From IMG/VR virus record IMGVR_UViG_3300033143_002274, positions 1 through 64,000 of that record: a stretch of DNA of 64,000 bases; one strand, 5' to 3'. A program made the translations under genes and the position numbers. Under the pieces are notes generated by a model. That model did not search any database, was not told where the DNA came from, and saw only the letters and a list, made by a program, of their open reading frames with translations. Within the stretch, counting starts at the first letter, position 1; every line of letters begins with the position of its first letter. Source of the DNA: a virus. Shown piece by piece: positions 17 to 11,907 of this stretch.

Positions 17-89
17 GGCGGGTGTAAGACAGGATTCGAACCTGCGTCTTCGATATCTCGATATTCTATCCACTGAACTACCAGCACCC
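17..89 (-). ncRNA. tRNA-like element lacking an anticodon loop (pseudo-tRNA/mimic)
   Basis: Canonical D arm (GTTC-AGTGGATA-GAAT) and T arm (GCAGG-TTCGAAT-CCTGT). Anticodon arm is TCGA-GATA-TCGA (4-nt loop). Acceptor stem mismatched; ends GCCT rather than NCCA. Confidence 0.7.
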
Positions 90-186: not shown

Positions 187-654
187 TTAAAGATCATTGA
201 ACCTTGTTGATTCTATATAGAACTTATCAATTGATTCATTCTCTTTCTTGTTCTTATTCCATTTCTTTAAAAATTTATAGGCACGTTTCATCCGTATGCG
301 TTCTTCCAATGTCATGTTGATGAATATTGAATGTTCTCTTGCTACATTGTCATCCCTATAACTTTTATCCATTAACTTATTGTGTATGAATGTTACACGT
401 ATATTACCACGCACCATATCAGAAAACATTGTTGTTTCGTTGTAATTAGCTACATCTAATTTCCATTCAATAGGATGTTCATAGGCACTTTCATAAATGA
501 AATTAAACATATCACGTCTGCGTTTGTCTGACGAAAACACCTTACACACACCAGCATCATACAACTGCTTTAATTTAACTACACCCATAATGAGTACCCA
601 CATTATCAATGAGAATATCATCAAAATCCAAAACGCTTTTTGCCCTTCAGTCAT
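187..654 (-). CDS. hypothetical protein with N-terminal TM segment
   Basis: 155-aa ORF coupled to the upstream gene. Confidence 0.7.
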   Translation of the reverse strand: MTEGQKAFWILMIFSLIMWVLIMGVVKLKQLYDAGVCKVFSSDKRRRDMFNFIYESAYEHPIEWKLDVANYNETTMFSDMVRGNIRVTFIHNKLMDKSYRDDNVAREHSIFINMTLEERIRMKRAYKFLKKWNKNKKENESIDKFYIESTRFNDL

Positions 655-1646
655 TACAGTCCCACAATACTATCAATATGTTTAAAGTACCATACTCGTG
701 CTTTTTTACCAAGATCCCGACTGATATCTTTTTTGGTTAAACCAGATGCTTCTAACACATCAGATTCTTCTTTCATCACATCAGCGAACACCCAAGACAA
801 AAAAGTACCTGTTTCTTCTTGGGTAATGTTCATGTCCATTTCAACAAGGTAATCAATACCCTGACATAAACGATTGTCAGTTACTACTCTGTCGATAAAC
901 TCTGCAACAGATTTGAGTTTGACCACATCAACTTCCACTAACTTTTTCACTTTGCTAACAGAATGTTTTTCACCTTTCACTTTAAACCAGAAGTCAGATG
1001 ATTCATATCCTTCAGTAGTACATTTCCACACAACACCTTCGCCAATACCATTTTTGTTGAAGTGTTTGCCTACTGGACATTCTGCTTCAACTTCATTAGT
1101 TATAGTAACCAAATCATTAGTATGTAATGCAGGATTACTGAAATCAATTTCCATTTCATACGTTTCAAATGAATTGATGTCATATATACCAAGATGCTTT
1201 AGGTAATTGAAATCAATTACTTCATCCAGTTTAGTATGGTCTTGTCGTACTACAATTTCACCTTCACCATAAGATATGGCGAACACCACAAACATCTTAG
1301 AGAGTTGTGAGAGTGCCACACCTTTTTGTATACCTTCACCACACCACTCACCGTATATTGTTATAGGTGACATAGTATCAACAGGCACACTGACACTAAT
1401 TTGGATTGATAATATATGGTCTTTGATAAATTCAACAAATCCATAATGACCTTTATCAACAATATTATTGCGTGATTGTACCTGATAAGAACCATCACCA
1501 TGTAATACAACAGCCGCATTAGTACCATGAAGTTTCACAGTACCTCTGAAAGCTAACGTGGGGGGCAACTCGTTATGGTACTTTGCTCTGTCATTAACAT
1601 GTTTGCATGTGCTTCTGAACTGTTCGATACTTGGAAACTTTATCAT
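654..1646 (-). CDS. RNA ligase, Rnl2 family
   Basis: Nucleotidyltransferase motifs KLHGTN (I), YGEWCG (III), FVVFAI (IIIa), EGVVW (IV), FKVK (V). Confidence 0.85.
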   Translation of the reverse strand: MIKFPSIEQFRSTCKHVNDRAKYHNELPPTLAFRGTVKLHGTNAAVVLHGDGSYQVQSRNNIVDKGHYGFVEFIKDHILSIQISVSVPVDTMSPITIYGEWCGEGIQKGVALSQLSKMFVVFAISYGEGEIVVRQDHTKLDEVIDFNYLKHLGIYDINSFETYEMEIDFSNPALHTNDLVTITNEVEAECPVGKHFNKNGIGEGVVWKCTTEGYESSDFWFKVKGEKHSVSKVKKLVEVDVVKLKSVAEFIDRVVTDNRLCQGIDYLVEMDMNITQEETGTFLSWVFADVMKEESDVLEASGLTKKDISRDLGKKARVWYFKHIDSIVGL

Positions 1647-3231: not shown

Positions 3232-3555
3232 CTAATTTCTGAAACGTTTATGATATTTACCAATGACCATATTACTGAAGAATCCACTATGGTCAACATT
3301 GATAACGGTTGTAACAACTTCTTTTTTACATATGAACAACATGTTTTCGAATACTTTAAAAACAGGTTTGGTGTCATACCCATATGTCTCGTAACAATGA
3401 GTCATGAATCTGGTGTTGTTATAAATTGAATTACAATCTTTCGATCTATAAAACACTCGTGAGAATGATGCTGCCACATCCCCATTTTCTACCCGACTCT
3501 TAAACCGTTCTTTGAACCTTACAAGAGCATGGTGTGTAAACCTGTGTTTTTGCAT
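3232..3555 (-). CDS. hypothetical protein (FTHHALVRFKER, possibly RelE/DUF4258-like fold)
   Basis: N-terminal HA..R..ER motif and C-terminal VVTTVI strand. Confidence 0.55.
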   Translation of the reverse strand: MQKHRFTHHALVRFKERFKSRVENGDVAASFSRVFYRSKDCNSIYNNTRFMTHCYETYGYDTKPVFKVFENMLFICKKEVVTTVINVDHSGFFSNMVIGKYHKRFRN

Positions 3556-3764
3556 TGCATTCTCCTTCTGGTTATTAAAACTGCTACCTGTAGTCTTGAA
3601 TCTACATTTAACTTTTTCAAAATACGATGTACATGTTTCTGTACTGTTCCAGTGGCGATACCTAATTGTTTTCCTATTGCTATATTTCCCTTACCTTCAC
3701 ATATGATATCACATATTTCATTTTCACGCTTGGTTAAATCTTTTACCAAAACTTCAAATTTCAT
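3519..3764 (-). CDS. LuxR-type HTH regulator
   Basis: LTKRENEI...GKGNIAIGKQLGIATGTVQKHVHRILKKL; start moved to MKFEV because the upstream part overlaps a tRNA. Confidence 0.85.
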   Translation of the reverse strand: MKFEVLVKDLTKRENEICDIICEGKGNIAIGKQLGIATGTVQKHVHRILKKLNVDSRLQVAVLITRRRMQCKNTGLHTMLL

Positions 3765-3778
3765 ACTTGTTCCTAAAA

Positions 3779-3855
3779 TGGTGGGTCTGGATGGACTTGA
3801 ACCATCGACCAATGAATTATGAGTTCACTGCTCTGACCATCTGAGCTACAGACCC
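3779..3855 (-). tRNA. tRNA with CAT anticodon, probably Ile2 (lysidine type)
   Basis: GGGTCTG acceptor (Ile-like), GTGAA-CTCATAA-TTCAT anticodon arm, ACCA end. Confidence 0.9.
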
Positions 3856-4735: not shown

Positions 4736-5029
4736 TTAACAAGTCCAACCGCGTGAATCCATTTCATCAAACTCAGGATCTTTTTTACGGGCTACATTGG
4801 TCACTGCGTCAACCATATCTACCGCTTCATGACCAATATTATATGCTTGATATAACTCCACACCCTTGTCTAATATTTTACGTGCTTCCTTCATATGAAA
4901 CATAGCACTTTTATAGTTGGCTGATTTGTTAGCTTCTTCTCTATCTGTTGTTTCTGTATTAGGCCAGTATTTCTTACCTGTGAATACTGCCCAGTTACCG
5001 TTTGGAAGTTGCTTTGCGTTATATTTCAT
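4736..5029 (-). CDS. hypothetical early protein
   Basis: ORF immediately after a sigma70-type promoter. Confidence 0.75.
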   Translation of the reverse strand: MKYNAKQLPNGNWAVFTGKKYWPNTETTDREEANKSANYKSAMFHMKEARKILDKGVELYQAYNIGHEAVDMVDAVTNVARKKDPEFDEMDSRGWTC

Positions 5030-5058
5030 TTTTTTGTTTCCCTGAGTTGATGTAGGGA

Positions 5059-5087
5059 ATTATAGATTGAAAATATGGGGAAGTCAA
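5059..5087 (-). promoter_or_regulatory. sigma70-type early promoter
   Basis: TTGACT-17-TATAAT with TTTTCAATC before the -10 box. Confidence 0.85.
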
Positions 5088-5109
5088 GGATTATTTTAGA
5101 TTGAAAAGA

Positions 5110-5975
5110 AAGAAGGTTGAGATTACGCCTTTTATAGTATACCTTTCATCGGATTACCATACATGGGCTACATATATGTTGCCGACTTATCCACAAACGA
5201 CCACATATAGTGCGCCGTTTGTAATATACCGTGATTGCCTTTTTGATGGTGGCGTTTCCATTTACACTCTAAACTACTCTAGCTTCGGACTACCGATTGG
5301 GTATGCCTACCTTCTCGTGCGCTTTCACTAAAATGCTAATCTCTTTGCGGGATCATAGCACCCTTCATTCTTACAAGTAAGTGAAGGTTTAAATCACTTT
5401 CGTTTAAAGCAGGACAACACTTTTGCTTTTGATCGGACTCGAACCGATGACACAAAGATTAAGAGTCTTTTGCTCTACCAACTGAGCTACTATTTTAAGT
5501 TCACGATTATGTGGTTGTCCAATAGCTTCATACTCTTTTGGAGCACAAAATACCAAACATAACCTGTCGTTCGTCTTAGTCAGACTAATAAACCGTACTT
5601 CAAGTGTTTTACCACTATGATACTATGCACCGCGCTTATCCACTATAGACTCGCACTTATGCACTACTGATTAACCGTATTGCTATGTAATATTAGTATG
5701 TAGTGAGTTGGGTACTACCCCAATCTCTGTATATTCGTGTTCCTTCACAACCGAAGTTAAATGAAGCACTTAAACATACAATTCGTTCCACTACTATTAC
5801 GTCAGCCTTTAGCTCCGTATCAATGAAGCACATCCTTTCAGATGCAGGTTTCAGCTTTTATGGATTGACTATCCGAAGATAGCGATAGCTTGTGAGACTA
5901 CCTTTACAGATGTTGCCACCTGCTGTCATTGCCATACCAAGAACCCGCATTATACAGATCGAAAACTGATTGTAA
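5110..5975 (-). ncRNA. large structured ncRNA, probably GOLLD-like
   Basis: ~860 nt with no credible ORF, many short helices/tetraloops, follows a tRNA array, contains a tRNA module, ends ...AAGGCGTAATCTCAACCTT. Family call is from recalled resemblance only. Confidence 0.6.
5431..5490 (-). ncRNA. tRNA-Lys(CTT) D/anticodon/T core without acceptor stem, embedded in the large ncRNA
   Basis: TAGCTCAGTTGGTAGAGC, AAAGA-CTCTTAA-TCTTT, ATCGG-TTCGAGT-CCGAT; flanks do not form an acceptor stem; no CCA. Confidence 0.8.
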
Positions 5976-6001
5976 AGTTTTATTTACAATTAATTTAAAA
6001 T

Positions 6002-6084
6002 TGGTACTCAGGGTGGGAGTCGAACCCACAAGGGTCTGGTTTCTAAAACCAGTAGCTGTGCCAATTTACATTAACCACCTGAGC
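6002..6084 (-). tRNA. tRNA-Leu(TAG), short variable loop and enlarged D region
   Basis: CTGGT-TTTAGAA-ACCAG anticodon arm, GTGGG-TTCGACT-CCCAC T arm, ACCA. Confidence 0.85.
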
Positions 6085-6090
6085 ATAATT

Positions 6091-6178
6091 TGGTGCGAAA
6101 GGGGAGGATCGAACTCCCATGATCATTACAATCGGCAGATTTTAAGTCTGCTGCATATACCAATTTCGCCACAATCGC
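6091..6178 (-). tRNA. tRNA-Leu(TAA)
   Basis: GCAGA-CTTAAAA-TCTGC, long variable arm, two U-U mismatches in acceptor. Confidence 0.9.
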
Positions 6179-6181
6179 ATT

Positions 6182-6274
6182 TGGTGGTTGTGGATGGAAT
6201 CGAACCATCACAGTGTCCAGCACCTGTACAGGATTACAATCTGTCTCCGCTTAACCAATATCGAACTCACAACC
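6182..6274 (-). tRNA. tRNA-Tyr(GTA)
   Basis: ACAGA-TTGTAAT-CCTGT, long variable arm, ACCA. Confidence 0.85.
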
Positions 6275-6279
6275 TTGTT

Positions 6280-6366
6280 TGGCAGAAAGCAGTGGTATCG
6301 AACCACAACCCTTTCGGATCTAACGACTTAGCAGGTCGCAGCAATCACCATCATGCTTTACTTTCT
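6280..6366 (-). tRNA. tRNA-Ser(GCT)
   Basis: GCGAC-CTGCTAA-GTCGT, long variable arm, GCCA. Confidence 0.9.
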
Positions 6367-6371
6367 ATAAT

Positions 6372-6494
6372 TTATTTTGGGATTCCTATCCCCCAGCTTC
6401 TACGACATGCTTTCATAGAATCACGTTTAACATCAGACACCCATTTGAGTGCTTTCTTTCTGGCAAATCTTTTATCACGTTTCATTTTTGTCAT
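6372..6494 (-). CDS. 40-aa basic peptide inside the tRNA array
   Basis: AGAGGA SD then MTKMKRDKRFARKKALKW...; fills the gap between two Ser tRNAs. Confidence 0.6.
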   Translation of the reverse strand: MTKMKRDKRFARKKALKWVSDVKRDSMKACRRSWGIGIPK

Positions 6495-6515
6495 AACACT
6501 TTCCTCTATTAAATT

Positions 6516-6599
6516 TGGCAGAAGATAGAGTAATCGAAACCCCAACGTTTCCGTTGCCACAGGGTTCAAACCTGCTTTGCCACCTTGACGGTATCTTCT
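6516..6599 (-). tRNA. tRNA-Ser(TGA)
   Basis: GCAGG-TTTGAAC-CCTGT, long variable arm, GCCA. Confidence 0.85.
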
Positions 6600-6603
6600 T
6601 TAA

Positions 6604-6690
6604 ACGCTAACTAAAAGTTAGCGGTACTTTTTCAGTACTACCACACCTTACAATTGGAGGTGGTGATCCAGTGACTGAGTGAGTCACACA
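6604..6690 (-). ncRNA. small multi-hairpin RNA between tRNAs
   Basis: Helices GTGACT/AGTCAC, CACCT/AGGTG, GTAC/GTAC, CGCTAAC/GTTAGCG. Confidence 0.4.
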
Positions 6691-6696
6691 CTAAAC

Positions 6697-6767
6697 TGGC
6701 ACAAAGTATAGGAGTCGAACCCATCTTTTGAGTCTTGGAGGCTCATAGTTCCCACGAACAACAATGC
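6697..6767 (-). tRNA. tRNA-Trp(CCA), atypical
   Basis: TGAGC-CTCCAAG-ACTCA anticodon arm, G73, CCA; short D arm and U-U acceptor mismatches. Confidence 0.75.
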
Positions 6768-6773
6768 ACTAAC

Positions 6774-6849
6774 TGGTCAGGGATACACGATTCGAACGTG
6801 TGAAACTCGCGTCCAAGGCGAGGACTTTACCAGACTAAGCTAATCCCTG
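6774..6849 (-). tRNA. tRNA-Pro(TGG)
   Basis: C1-G72, CTCGC-CTTGGAC-GCGAG, ACCA. Confidence 0.9.
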
Positions 6850-6857
6850 TTAAAACT

Positions 6858-6932
6858 TGGCAGGAGTGGAAGGTATTGATCCCTCTCATGTCGGTTTCAA
6901 AAACCGATGCGTTCCCATTTCGCCACACTCCT
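6858..6932 (-). tRNA. tRNA-Gln(TTG), atypical T loop
   Basis: TCGGT-TTTTGAA-ACCGA; T loop ATCAATA; GCCA. Confidence 0.85.
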
Positions 6933-6953
6933 ATATAACTTTTCTACTCCCAT

Positions 6954-6988
6954 AAAAAAAGGGTGAGTAAACTTTCGTCTACTCACCC
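6954..6988 (-). terminator. intrinsic terminator (attenuator) upstream of the tRNA array
   Basis: GGGTGAGTAGAC-GAAA-GTTTACTCACCC followed by T7. Confidence 0.9.
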
Positions 6989-7020
6989 TGATAAAATTCT
7001 TAATGTTAATTTACATTAGC

Positions 7021-7098
7021 TCACAGGCAAGTAGTCCTCTCCGATAATAACGGATAAGATTGCGACCAACTAAGCTGTAGTGATGTAAATGTTTTCAT
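7021..7098 (-). CDS. attenuator leader peptide MKTFTSLQLSWSQSYPLLSERTTCL
   Basis: Leaderless ORF directly after the promoter; core codons match the downstream tRNAs; 3' end is complementary to the terminator 5' arm. Confidence 0.75.
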   Translation of the reverse strand: MKTFTSLQLSWSQSYPLLSERTTCL

Positions 7099-7103
7099 GT
7101 AGG

Positions 7104-9387: not shown

Positions 9388-10563
9388 TTAAAATCCACCT
9401 AAAGAAAGGTTACTAACAACCGCACGACCATAGTAGTCAGCAGAGTTGTTTAAATCTACTGATGAATCGTCAAACTTAGTGAACGCATAACGAGTCATTA
9501 AGCCCATACGTGGGTCAAAAGTAGTTGGGTCTGTTACAACGCCAGACTGCATTAAAGGAATGTAAGGTGAATATACGAAACCAGTATCAATCTCACTTGA
9601 ACCTTTATAACCCATAAGGATTGTATCAGTTGTAGCATAGATGTCTACGAATACACGTATAGAACCATTGAACGTTCCTGCGAACAAAGTGCTTGAAGGT
9701 GATAAATCACTTGAAGCAGTTGCAGACACGAATGAACCGTTGTTTGCATGACGCATTGCAGTAAGGATGTTTTGTGAAATTACCATCCAAGTTGCTCCAC
9801 CACGTTTTGACTTGATAGCGATTTGTGCTGACAAGTCAGACATACCGATAGAAAGTGCAGTGAATTTTTCAGATGCATAACGACCATCAGCTAATGAGAA
9901 GTCAAAAGACTTAACAGTACCAGCTAATGCTGTAAGTTCGTTGATTAACTCACGGTCAAGTTCACGAATTATTTCGTCAGAAAGAGCAGCAACTAATTCT
10001 TTTTCGATGTCGATACCATGCATAGCTTTAGCATCTTGATCAGATTCGATAGTCCATTTAGCTTGTAACTTACGAGTCTTAGCTTCAATCGCTTTCTTGA
10101 TGATTTCTAAGTTCATTTCGTTACCGCCGTCAGATTCTAAGGCAAGTGTGATTTGTGCTTCGGTACGTGCATCAGATGCAGTGTACGCTTCGCCAGCAGC
10201 AATTCCAGAATACTTGTCATAAACAATTACACCAGATGCTTCATCATCAGCTACCGGGCCACCACCAGCAATAGTATTCGCATAACGAACACGTAATGAT
10301 GTGATTTGTCCAACAGGTTGAGTCATAGGTTGAGTTCCAACCAATTCCATTGCGATAGTCGCAGGAGTAACACGTCTGATAAGAGGCATTACTAATTTTT
10401 CTAAACGTGCAACATTACCAGTGCCAGTAACACCAGCAGCAGCAGTTTCAGTTAAATATTTTTTTTGGTTTTCAAGAAGAACTGAAGTTACTTGTGTTTG
10501 CTTGTCATTAAGACCTTCAAGCAATACGCCTTTCATTTCTTCCCAATTCTGTGTAGTACTCAT
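9388..10563 (-). CDS. gp23: major capsid protein (T4 gp23-like)
   Basis: PLIRRV, VGTQPM..P.G, AKTRKLQAKWTIE..QD..A.HG.D, YSPYIPL, DP.TF.P..G.MTRY. Confidence 0.97.
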   Translation of the reverse strand: MSTTQNWEEMKGVLLEGLNDKQTQVTSVLLENQKKYLTETAAAGVTGTGNVARLEKLVMPLIRRVTPATIAMELVGTQPMTQPVGQITSLRVRYANTIAGGGPVADDEASGVIVYDKYSGIAAGEAYTASDARTEAQITLALESDGGNEMNLEIIKKAIEAKTRKLQAKWTIESDQDAKAMHGIDIEKELVAALSDEIIRELDRELINELTALAGTVKSFDFSLADGRYASEKFTALSIGMSDLSAQIAIKSKRGGATWMVISQNILTAMRHANNGSFVSATASSDLSPSSTLFAGTFNGSIRVFVDIYATTDTILMGYKGSSEIDTGFVYSPYIPLMQSGVVTDPTTFDPRMGLMTRYAFTKFDDSSVDLNNSADYYGRAVVSNLSLGGF

Positions 10564-10624
10564 TATAATAATCTCCTAAGTAATTATCTTGTTTATAATT
10601 TTATTTATTAAAATTGTTATTTTA

Positions 10625-11395
10625 TTATGCAATTAATGTTTTTAAACGTGCTTTTTGAGCAGCTTTTTCAGCATCAACTGATTCTTCGATAACTACTTCG
10701 TTATCTTCGCTAACTGATTCTTTAAGTACAGAATCAATTGTTTCTTGGTAACGTTGATCTAAATTGTCAGTATCTACACTTTCAAGGATAGTTCGCATTA
10801 CATCTTTCTTACTACCAGCTAAATTACCGAGTAAACCTTCAAGAACTTTTTCACGTTTAAATTCGATAACAGCAGATTCGCTTTCACTTAAAGCTGCTAC
10901 TGATGCTTCAAGTTTGTCTTGGATAGATTTCATATCTTCAGACACACCTAACTTATCAAAAGTAGATTTGAATGATTCATATAACTTCATACCAAAGTTG
11001 TTTTGTTTTGCTTCTAAAAGGTCATCATGTAATTCAGAAATTTCTTCTTTGACATGAGACTCAACTAAACCTTCGAAACTTTCAGAAAGTGTCTTAGCAT
11101 ATTGAACTTTGAATTCTTCAAGTTTCTTAGCATAAGTAGGTTCGATTGTTTTGTAGTGGTTAATATCTTCTTTCAGTTCAGCAATTTCTTGAGTTACTGC
11201 TTCATTGATAAGGTCAGTCATTTTAGCTAAAATGTCTTTCTTTTCAGTTAACATTTTCTTAGCATATTCAACTTCAAGTTGACCCTTTGCTTCTGTAATT
11301 GATTCTTCTTTGAAAGAGTTGATTGCTTCTTCCAATGCCACTTTTGTGTCATCGTTTAGTAATTCACTTTCAAGTAATTTTTTAAATGCGCTCAT
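10625..11395 (-). CDS. gp22: prohead core scaffold (gp22-like)
   Basis: Acidic coiled-coil, between protease and capsid genes. Confidence 0.85.
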   Translation of the reverse strand: MSAFKKLLESELLNDDTKVALEEAINSFKEESITEAKGQLEVEYAKKMLTEKKDILAKMTDLINEAVTQEIAELKEDINHYKTIEPTYAKKLEEFKVQYAKTLSESFEGLVESHVKEEISELHDDLLEAKQNNFGMKLYESFKSTFDKLGVSEDMKSIQDKLEASVAALSESESAVIEFKREKVLEGLLGNLAGSKKDVMRTILESVDTDNLDQRYQETIDSVLKESVSEDNEVVIEESVDAEKAAQKARLKTLIA

Positions 11396-11508: not shown

Positions 11509-11907
11509 TTATGTGAAATCCAGAATCTTTTCTAACTCAGTTGATTTAGATTTGATGTCTGCTGACAACTTGCTGATTGATTTGATTTGTTTTTCGGATG
11601 CTTCTTTTGAACTTTTGATTGTTGACATTAACTGGTCACGCTTCTTAACAAGTTTCAATATTGAATCATAAAGTGTACGCTGCTTACCTTTTGCGAATAT
11701 GGTAGCTACTCCACCCATGTACACTCCGTAAAGCGCACCTGATATGATTGCCAGAGGTAATGCTCCTGCTCCACCTATTGCAGTTAATGCAGCGTAAGAT
11801 GTTATGGTTGCACCAATCCCCAATATAGAACCTACTATTTTGAATACTTTGGATCTGGATGCTTCATCAAGTTGTTCTTCATATTCGTTAAGTTGTTGTA
11901 ACTTCAT
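11509..11907 (-). CDS. putative internal head protein with Gly-rich hydrophobic hairpin
   Basis: MKLQQLNE...LDEA N-terminus; head module. Confidence 0.6.
   Translation of the reverse strand: MKLQQLNEYEEQLDEASRSKVFKIVGSILGIGATITSYAALTAIGGAGALPLAIISGALYGVYMGGVATIFAKGKQRTLYDSILKLVKKRDQLMSTIKSSKEASEKQIKSISKLSADIKSKSTELEKILDFT

What the first reader, a model, noticed from the sequence alone, without database searches (positions are those of the whole stretch)
5110..5975. ~860-nt structured ncRNA (GOLLD-like) at the end of the attenuated tRNA operon
Seen: a long stretch with no credible ORF and many short helices with GAAA/TTCG/GCAA loops. It is co-oriented with the tRNA array and starts ~25 nt after the last tRNA, with no obvious terminator in between. 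Established: GOLLD RNAs are ~800-nt phage-associated RNAs found beside tRNAs, sometimes with embedded tRNAs, and their function is unknown. Inference: if it is co-transcribed under the attenuator, its function would be tied to tRNA-depletion stress, which would be a useful clue. The family assignment rests on my recollection of motifs.
Basis: partly seen in the sequence, partly recalled or inferred. Interest (0 to 1): 0.7.

Follow-up and report, generated by a model that had tools for sequence, protein, structure and literature searches.

The report
Phage GOLLD RNA with truncated tRNA
The gene-free stretch is a true member of the known GOLLD family of giant cage-forming phage RNAs, with its own promoter and a built-in lysine-tRNA look-alike that lacks the arm a working tRNA needs, so it is a correct call of a known RNA.

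Summary
Window 5114-~5943 on the minus strand is a ~830-nt GOLLD RNA. Rfam RF02032 matches 5114-5565 end to end at 174.3 bits (cut-off 150, E 1e-48). That model covers only the conserved 3' domain. The 378-nt 5' domain (5566-5943) is shown to be structured by comparison with one close homolog, L063 (79% identity): 26 of 109 predicted pairs carry compensatory changes, against 2-4 in slid controls. Variants seen in sediment sequencing runs also mostly keep the pairs.

The family assignment stands. The inference that the RNA is co-transcribed under a tRNA attenuator does not. A sigma-70-type promoter (5976-5949) lies directly upstream. It aligns with a perfect consensus promoter in L063, whose 12.5-kb contig has no tRNA.

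The central linker points into the cage lumen in solved GOLLD structures. Here it holds a tRNA-Lys(CUU)-like core (5431-5490) with D, anticodon and T arms but no acceptor stem. L063 keeps this core through compensatory changes.

The 5' domain is a rare sequence type, and one 3'-domain hairpin (probably P21b) is absent.

GOLLD, its tRNA neighbourhood, embedded (pseudo-)tRNAs and the cage are all published. This scan has noted GOLLD on many other genomes. Verdict: a new member of a known kind, of modest interest.

The parts
5949..5976 (-). Sigma-70-type promoter of the GOLLD RNA (TTTACA, 16-nt spacer, TATAAT). The predicted start is about 5943 +/- 3.
   Evidence: Scores 11 of 12. It aligns with a 12/12 TTGACA-16-TATAAT in L063 at 11767-11794, while the spacer has diverged.
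5114..5943 (-). Whole GOLLD RNA, about 830 nt.
   Evidence: The 3' limit is the end of the Rfam match. The 5' limit comes from the promoter and the first covarying helix. Folding z-score is -4.5.
5566..5943 (-). Variable 5' domain, with about 19 helices. It is a rare sequence type.
   Evidence: In window versus L063, 109 pairs are predicted, 26 with changes on both sides, and 100% of cells are paired; slid controls give 2-4. Variants in sequencing runs add 3 further compensatory pairs and 10 pair-keeping single changes. There is no sequence similarity to the 5' regions of 77 other GOLLD loci.
5114..5565 (-). Conserved 3' domain, the part covered by the Rfam GOLLD model.
   Evidence: RF02032 positions 1-416, 174.3 bits against a cut-off of 150. 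A 17-position hairpin of the model (positions about 249-265) is absent.
5504..5565 (-). First hairpin of the 3' domain (model positions 1-62). Its internal loop supplies one strand of the helix that closes the linker.
   Evidence: Alignment.
5431..5490 (-). tRNA-Lys(CUU)-like core in the linker. It has D, anticodon and T arms but no acceptor stem and no CCA.
   Evidence: Rfam tRNA scores 50.5 bits but matches only model positions 7-64. ARAGORN does not call it. Only 2 nt separate the T stem from the conserved AAAGCAAAAGU motif, and the best acceptor pairing is 3 of 7. L063 keeps the fold with 2 + 2 compensatory pairs in the anticodon and T stems and the same CUU.
5511..5520 (-). 5' strand of the helix that closes the linker (GGACAAC, a bulged C, then AC).
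   Evidence: Pairs with 5412-5420. The same helix, with heavy covariation, is found in nearly all of about 80 GOLLD loci.
5412..5420 (-). 3' strand of the helix that closes the linker.
5419..5429 (-). Conserved GOLLD motif AAAGCAAAAGU at the 3' edge of the linker.
   Evidence: This motif was used to retrieve 68 viral and 11 metagenome loci.
5402..5411 (-). 5' strand of the pseudoknot annotated in Rfam.
   Evidence: Pairs 10 of 10 with 5265-5274, and three pairs are changed on both sides relative to the family consensus (read from the alignment).
5265..5274 (-). 3' strand of the pseudoknot annotated in Rfam.

Best explanation
This is a GOLLD RNA gene of an uncultured large T4-like phage (a 75-kb fragment, estimated about one third complete). 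Shown here: it passes the family's covariance model, it has a structured 5' domain, and it has a conserved promoter of its own. Inferred: host RNA polymerase with sigma-70 starts near 5943 and makes an RNA of about 830 nt, without needing the upstream tRNA array. By homology with the solved env-38 (14-mer) and Streptococcus agalactiae (12-mer) GOLLD structures, the RNA folds into a 5' cap domain and a 3' ring domain and self-assembles into an RNA-only cage of roughly 10-14 copies. In those structures the central linker points into the lumen. Here that linker is a tRNA-Lys(CUU)-shaped core without an acceptor stem. It therefore should not be a substrate for release by RNase P or RNase Z, nor for charging, and it should stay covalently inside the cage, one copy per subunit. 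The biological role of the cage is unknown for the whole family. The most likely reading is a phage-made compartment or scaffold that presents or hides tRNA-shaped modules during infection.
For: Membership:
- RF02032 matches full-length at 174.3 bits against a cut-off of 150; the pseudoknot and conserved motifs are kept.
- 5' domain structure: 26 of 109 pairs are compensatory against 2-4 in slid controls. Independent variants from sequencing runs mostly keep the pairs.

Own promoter:
-. L063 has no tRNA.

Expression hint:
- A 770-nt contig in a sediment metatranscriptome library covers only the GOLLD of a relative about 93% identical over the parts that align.

Phage context:
- T4-type major head protein (phrog_138); nearest cultured relatives are at 42-46% identity, most of them 280-350-kb jumbo phages. 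The record is a virus record estimated 32% complete.

tRNA-like core:
-.

Cage and linker geometry:
- PMC12286853 reports a 14-mer with D7 symmetry, linker nucleotides 497-538 inside the cage, and tRNAs sometimes in the linker.
- PMC12990946 reports 10-, 12- and 14-mers, and that the linker J13/15 points inward.
Against: - Cage assembly is transferred from two distant family members, and the 5' domain here shares no detectable sequence with 77 other GOLLD loci.
- One 3'-domain hairpin that forms an inter-shell bridge in env-38 (probably P21b; this mapping is my inference) is missing. Stoichiometry, and even cage closure, are therefore uncertain.
- The 5'-domain covariation rests on one full homolog plus partial contig variants.
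- No intrinsic terminator follows 5114, so the 3' end is not defined.
- No terminator separates the RNA from the tRNA array, so read-through transcripts may exist.
- The RNA-library contig is not proof of transcription, because DNA carry-over is possible.
Confidence: 0.75

Rival explanations
1. The RNA is the distal part of the tRNA operon, transcribed from the promoter at about 7134 through the leader and terminator at 6989-6960. Its level would then follow tRNA-depletion stress.
For: It lies on the same strand as the eight tRNA-like genes. It sits about 60 nt after the last one, with no terminator-like site between 6005 and 5943. A strong hairpin followed by a T run lies before the array at 6989-6960.
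Against: A near-consensus promoter sits between the last tRNA and the RNA, and it is conserved in L063, which has neither tRNAs nor such a leader. The RNA-library contig of a relative stops inside the GOLLD, while DNA contigs continue into the array. The processing that cuts the tRNAs out of a shared precursor would probably also cut this RNA off from them (my inference).
Confidence: 0.15
2. The tRNA-like core is only a decaying remnant of a tRNA once carried in the linker, with no role of its own. The cage works without it.
For: Nine of 13 distinct GOLLD linkers that carry a T loop have a full acceptor stem, some with an encoded CCA, so truncation could be degeneration. A pseudo-tRNA in a Mycobacterium GOLLD gave no detectable separate product (PMC6582537). 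A close relative carries a different module at this place.
Against: Window and L063 differ at about 21% of positions, yet they keep all 14 stem pairs of the core, four of them through double changes, together with the anticodon loop U-CUU-AA. Acceptor-less cores with other anticodons recur in unrelated GOLLD lineages and are always fused within 0-3 nt of the conserved motif.
Confidence: 0.25
3. The stretch encodes small proteins or is a degraded gene, not an RNA gene.
For: Short ORFs of 30-76 aa exist on both strands.
Against: Their limits are not kept in L063, and the two sequences differ by many indels that are not multiples of three. The covariance-model match and the compensatory pairs explain the conservation.
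Confidence: 0.01

Closest known systems
GOLLD RNA env-38 (marine metagenome, 833 nt; cryo-EM 14-mer cage, PDB 9MEE; Kretsch et al. 2025, PMC12286853)
   Same: Same Rfam family. Nearly the same length (about 830 nt). Both are split into a 5' and a 3' domain. Both lie next to phage tRNA genes, have a variable central linker flanked by the same conserved motif, and keep the pseudoknot.
   Different: The 5' domain is of a different sequence type. The second hairpin of the P21 junction is absent. The linker holds a tRNA-like core instead of a short disordered loop. Assembly was not tested here.
Streptococcus agalactiae GOLLD (700 nt; 12-mer, PDB 9L0R; reviewed in PMC12990946)
   Same: It also lacks P21b and has a reduced 5' domain, which shows that family members missing this bridge still form closed cages.
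   Different: It is bacterial or prophage in origin with a shorter 5' domain, and no tRNA-like linker is reported.
Mycobacterium/Mycolicibacterium GOLLD inside tRNA arrays, with an embedded tRNA-Phe or pseudo-tRNA (PMC6582537; Morgado et al. 2020, cited in PMC12990946)
   Same: A GOLLD set in a tRNA array, with a tRNA-shaped insert in linker J13/15 that is not seen as a separate product.
   Different: Here the insert has an intact D/anticodon/T core with a Lys CUU anticodon and no room at all for an acceptor strand. The host is a large T4-like phage from sediment metagenomes. I could not read Morgado 2020 to compare the details.
ROOL RNA (octameric cage)
   Same: A large phage-associated RNA near tRNA islands that forms an RNA-only cage with a linker inside.
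   Different: Unrelated in sequence and fold. No Rfam ROOL match appears in the window.

Membership tests
GOLLD RNA (Rfam RF02032) | Covariance-model score at or above the curated gathering score | tested here: met
   174.3 bits against 150, model positions 1-416 of 416, E 1e-48. The control genomes give no match.
GOLLD RNA (Rfam RF02032) | Conserved 3'-domain motifs and pseudoknot (AAAGCAAAAGU, GAAAG, AGAGUAGU, GUGGAUAA, GUAAUCUCA) | tested here: met
   All are present in the alignment. The pseudoknot pairs 10 of 10, with compensatory differences from the consensus.
GOLLD RNA (Rfam RF02032) | About 700-850 nt in all, with a structured but variable 5' domain upstream of the conserved 3' domain | tested here: met
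   About 830 nt from the promoter-defined start to the end of the model. 5' domain: 26 of 109 pairs compensatory against 2-4 in slid controls.
GOLLD RNA (Rfam RF02032) | Phage or prophage location, usually beside tRNA genes | tested here: met
   The record is a virus record, it encodes a T4-type major head protein, and the tRNA array lies directly upstream.
GOLLD RNA (Rfam RF02032) | Variable linker closed by a scaffold helix, sometimes holding a tRNA | tested here: met
   The closing helix GGACAAC/GUUGUCC covaries in L063 and across about 80 loci. A tRNA-like core lies in the linker.
GOLLD RNA (Rfam RF02032) | Second hairpin of the P21 junction (bridge B9 in env-38) | tested here: not met
   Model positions of about 249-265 are deleted in the window, and L063 is built the same way. 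This is not a defining feature, since S. agalactiae GOLLD lacks P21b too (PMC12990946). The mapping to P21b is my inference.
GOLLD RNA (Rfam RF02032) | Self-assembly into an RNA-only homo-oligomeric cage | not testable with these tools
   Known for env-38 and S. agalactiae only (PMC12286853, PMC12990946).
tRNA (RF00005), for the embedded module | D, anticodon and T arms with conserved loop residues | tested here: met
   50.5 bits over model positions 7-64; the anticodon loop reads CUCUUAA.
tRNA (RF00005), for the embedded module | 7-bp acceptor stem and a 3' end that can be charged | tested here: not met
   ARAGORN does not call it. Best acceptor pairing is 3 of 7, and only 2 nt lie between the T stem and the GOLLD motif. 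No acceptor helix appears in the consensus fold.
ROOL RNA | Match to the Rfam model | tested here: not met
   No ROOL match, even at E <= 1 on 4900-7100.

The most novel reading that the evidence does not exclude
The acceptor-less tRNA-Lys(CUU) core may be the functional cargo of this cage. Roughly 10-14 copies, which can be neither released nor charged, would be displayed in the lumen. There they could act as a decoy or sponge for a host factor that recognises the anticodon arm or elbow of tRNA-Lys, for example an anticodon nuclease of a defence system or a tRNA-modifying enzyme. Close relatives would swap this cassette to match the host factor they face. Points in favour:
- Selection keeps the fold.
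- Truncated cores with other anticodons recur in unrelated GOLLDs.
- A different T-arm module sits at the same place in a relative about 93% identical over the parts that align.
- The phage also carries other tRNA mimics, deviant tRNAs and an Rnl2-type RNA ligase.

No binding partner is known, and nothing here tests binding.
Probability: 0.1. Interest if true: 0.85.

Novelty: new member of a known kind. Interest (0 to 1): 0.3.

Why it matters
GOLLD is one of the largest bacterial and phage non-coding RNAs. It is now known to build an RNA-only cage, but it still has no known function. This copy adds no new kind of RNA. It offers three small handles:
- A clean, conserved sigma-70 promoter that defines a stand-alone transcription unit.
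- A rare 5'-domain type combined with a 3' domain that lacks P21b, which is useful for asking what sets cage stoichiometry.
- A linker cargo that is tRNA-shaped but cannot be released or charged, and is kept by selection. This argues that at least some linker 'tRNAs' work while still attached inside the cage.

For annotation, the practical message is that the region is an ordinary Rfam-detectable GOLLD gene on the minus strand, not part of an attenuator-controlled operon.

Tried and rejected
- **Synteny search.** Relatives of the flanking 97-aa and 250-aa proteins gave 11 viral loci, none with a GOLLD.
- **Relatives by major head protein.** This gave 16 loci. GOLLD was searched for in the whole records of 12 of them plus L063's record, and only L063's own record matched. 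Most of these records are short fragments, so this says little.
- **First gapped motif pattern.** It had a wrong gap length, and its single hit (L013) was a chance match with no Rfam support.
- **Exact 22-nt and 21-nt words of this subtype.** They found only L063 in viral contigs, nothing in metagenome contigs and nothing in genome contigs. The T-loop-plus-motif pattern found nothing in genome contigs. No host clue was obtained.
- **blastn against cultured phages.** It matched only the tRNA-like core, to ordinary tRNA-Lys/Asn genes.
- **Sequence similarity of the 5' domain.** blastn and nhmmer against 77 other GOLLD loci found none.
- **General test for promoters before GOLLDs.** There is no enrichment of sigma-70 consensus sites in 60 loci. 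An own promoter is therefore shown only for this subtype.
- **Sequencing runs.** All holders have small shares (0.05-0.11) and are Logan contigs. 'Marine sediment' is only a tentative habitat. Depth, ends and strand cannot be read from contigs.
- **Papers.** Weinberg 2009 and Morgado 2020 are not held in the library, so I could not check whether acceptor-less linker tRNAs are already described in print.

Full report
**What is there**

The window is the first 64 kb of a 75-kb IMG/VR virus record that CheckV rates 32% complete. It encodes a T4-type major head protein (phrog_138). The nearest cultured relatives are Alishewanella phages (46% identity) and, at 41-42%, jumbo phages such as PA5oct, XaC1 and a 349-kb Vibrio phage. 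All genes around the finding lie on the minus strand.

A cmscan of the whole window against Rfam 15 gives one non-tRNA match above its gathering score. It is GOLLD (RF02032) at 5114-5565, minus strand, 174.3 bits against a cut-off of 150, covering model positions 1-416 of 416. The same search over 14 control genomes gives nothing.

The Rfam model covers only the conserved 3' half of GOLLD. In the solved env-38 RNA, the 5' domain is residues 1-420 and the 3' domain 421-833 (PMC12286853).

**Is the 5' part a structured RNA?**

A gapped pattern built from conserved GOLLD motifs retrieved 68 viral loci. Only one of them resembles the window outside the core motifs. This is L063, a 12.5-kb contig cut off inside the 3' domain. 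It is 79% identical over 622 nt, and that stretch includes the whole 5' domain.

RNAalifold on the two 5' domains predicts 109 pairs in 19 helices, and 26 pairs are changed on both sides while staying paired. On the same alignment, all cells are paired. Sliding the 3' partners by 1-3 columns leaves only 2-4 double changes and 28-46% pairing. The structure was derived from these same two sequences, which favours it.

As an independent check, I took the variant letters that read laying reported for relatives in four sequencing runs and placed them on the model. Nineteen variant positions fall on model pairs:
- Six form three further compensatory pairs.
- Ten are single changes that keep a standard pair.
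- One (5729) also keeps a standard pair.
- Two would break a pair. The variant table was truncated, so their partners may have changed too.

The whole 832-nt RNA folds better than 20 of 20 shuffles, with z = -4.5. The short ORFs (76 aa at most) are not kept in L063, and the two sequences differ by many indels that are not multiples of three.

**Transcription unit**

The pattern scan finds TTTACA-16-TATAAT (11 of 12) at 5976-5949 on the minus strand, just before the first helix. Such sites are no more frequent in the region than in shuffles, so one site alone proves little. In L063, however, the aligned position carries TTGACA-16-TATAAT (12 of 12), while the spacer and the first transcribed bases have diverged.

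L063 has no tRNA anywhere in its 12.5 kb, and a 98-aa ORF precedes the promoter. This subtype of GOLLD therefore carries its own promoter, independent of any tRNA array.

In the window, the last tRNA-like gene (6005-6075, 26 bits, below the Rfam cut-off) ends 29 nt before the -35 hexamer. No terminator-like site lies between them, so read-through is possible but not needed. No terminator follows 5114 either. The next gene (4736-5029) has its own TTGACT-17-TATAAT at 5087-5059.

A 770-nt contig from a sediment metatranscriptome library covers 5129-5902 of a close relative (26 other letters over the two long aligned pieces of 521 nt) and nothing outside it. DNA contigs of other runs continue into the tRNA array. 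By the tool's own caveats, this is a weak hint of a discrete and abundant RNA. It is not proof.

A survey of 60 other GOLLD loci shows no general enrichment of sigma-70 consensus sites upstream.

**The linker and its tRNA-like core**

Between the first hairpin of the 3' domain (5504-5565) and the conserved motif AAAGCAAAAGU (5429-5419) lies the family's variable linker. Here it holds a match to the Rfam tRNA model of 50.5 bits, which covers only model positions 7-64. ARAGORN does not call it.
- The D, anticodon and T arms are regular.
- The anticodon loop reads C-U-CUU-A-A, which is Lys.
- Only 2 nt separate the T stem from the conserved motif, so a 3' acceptor strand has no room.
- The best possible acceptor pairing is 3 of 7.

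L063 keeps the same architecture and anticodon. It has two A-U to U-A exchanges in the anticodon stem and two exchanges in the T stem, and again no acceptor stem.

That helix occurs, with abundant covariation, in nearly all of about 80 GOLLD loci, whether or not they hold a tRNA. It is part of the GOLLD scaffold.

I found 13 distinct GOLLD linkers that carry a T loop. They fall into two groups:
- Nine have 5-7 of 7 acceptor pairs. Several of these have an encoded CCA that overlaps the motif, and some have unusual anticodons.
- Four have no acceptor stem: the window and L063 (Lys CUU), L047/L106 (Pro UGG) and L101 (Arg UCU).

In the RNA-library relative, the core is replaced by 65 other letters that contain a different T arm.

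**Comparison with what is known**

The following are all published (PMC12286853, PMC12990946, PMC6582537):
- GOLLD's size.
- Its conserved 3' and variable 5' domains.
- Its phage origin and its position in or beside tRNA arrays.
- tRNAs or pseudo-tRNAs in linker J13/15.
- Assembly into RNA-only cages of 10, 12 or 14 copies with the linker pointing inward.

The window's copy meets every defining feature I could test.

It differs in three respects:
- **Rare 5' domain.** Its 5' domain shares no detectable sequence with 77 other loci, 52 of which form one common type.
- **Missing hairpin.** It lacks the second hairpin of a three-way junction in the 3' domain. From the Rfam structure line and the published description, I take this hairpin to be P21b, which forms an inter-shell kissing loop in env-38 and is also missing in the 12-mer of S. 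agalactiae. The first hairpin of that junction keeps a GC dinucleotide at the consensus loop position, and L063 has CG nearby. This recalls the published GC/CG switch, but the loop alignment is not secure.
- **Acceptor-less linker cargo.** Its linker holds a tRNA-shaped core that has no acceptor stem.

**Mechanism**

Shown here: family membership, a structured 5' domain, a conserved promoter, and a conserved tRNA-like fold that lacks an acceptor stem.

Inferred from solved relatives: self-assembly into a cage with the tRNA-like cores in the lumen.

Inferred from established tRNA biochemistry: without an acceptor stem, the core is not a substrate for RNase P, RNase Z or aminoacyl-tRNA synthetases, so it stays attached.

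Speculative: the cores act as decoys for a host factor that targets tRNA-Lys. The same phage carries other tRNA mimics and deviant tRNAs (earlier notes; Rfam-only match at 21-87) and an Rnl2-type RNA ligase. These fit a tRNA-centred conflict but do not test it.

**Verdict**

The family assignment is right, and the attenuator-coupling inference is not supported. This is a new member of a known family with some uncommon details. The scan has noted GOLLD on many other genomes, including linker tRNA variants. Interest is modest.

Noticed in passing
window 654-1646 (-): A 330-aa Rnl2-type RNA ligase (PF09414 at 53.9 bits; phrog_548, E 6e-63), 3.5 kb downstream of the GOLLD and in the same early-looking gene block as the tRNAs and tRNA mimics.
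   Followed up: partly
window 21-87 (-): The Rfam tRNA model matches at 41 bits, but ARAGORN does not call it.
   Followed up: no
window 3519-3767 (-): A small GerE/LuxR-type HTH protein (PF00196 at 58 bits; weak matches to sigma-70 region 4), next to tRNA-Met (3779-3855).
   Followed up: partly
window 6005-6932 (-): The tRNA array holds several members that only Rfam sees, or that score below the cut-off (6185-6274 at 31.7 bits; 6005-6075 at 26 bits). A small basic ORF (6372-6494 or 6372-6569) lies inside the array.
   Followed up: no
L035, L099, L100, L102, L103, L104, L108, L109, L031 (linkers just upstream of the AAAGCAAAAGU motif): Full tRNAs sit in the linkers of other GOLLDs. Several have a CCA encoded so that it overlaps the conserved motif. 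Some have odd anticodons with A at position 34 (AUU, ACU, AGG), or anticodon loops that ARAGORN reads as 2 or 4 nt.
   Followed up: partly
L047/L106 and L101 (linkers): Two further GOLLD lineages have acceptor-less tRNA cores: Pro UGG with a long variable arm, and Arg UCU. Both are fused within 0-3 nt of the conserved motif, as in the window.
   Followed up: partly
window 5431-5500 and 5717-5830, as seen in run X4: In an RNA-library contig of a close relative, the tRNA-like core is replaced by 65 other letters that hold a different T arm. A 112-nt part of the 5' domain is likewise replaced by 98 other letters. This suggests cassette-like exchange inside an otherwise conserved RNA.
   Followed up: partly
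L063 11605-11766: A second near-consensus promoter (TTGACA-16-TATACT) lies 160 nt upstream of the GOLLD promoter. The roughly 130 nt between them has no ORF and no counterpart in the window.
   Followed up: no
L007 (IMGVR_UViG_3300010412_000022): A phage related through the 250-aa protein carries about 20 tRNAs and a tmRNA (matches to both beta_tmRNA and permuted-tmRNA models at 10562-10921), but no GOLLD in the 12.7 kb examined.
   Followed up: no
L011 4806-5175: The Rfam cspA thermoregulator model matches just above its cut-off (79.9 bits against 78) in a 141-kb viral contig.
   Followed up: no
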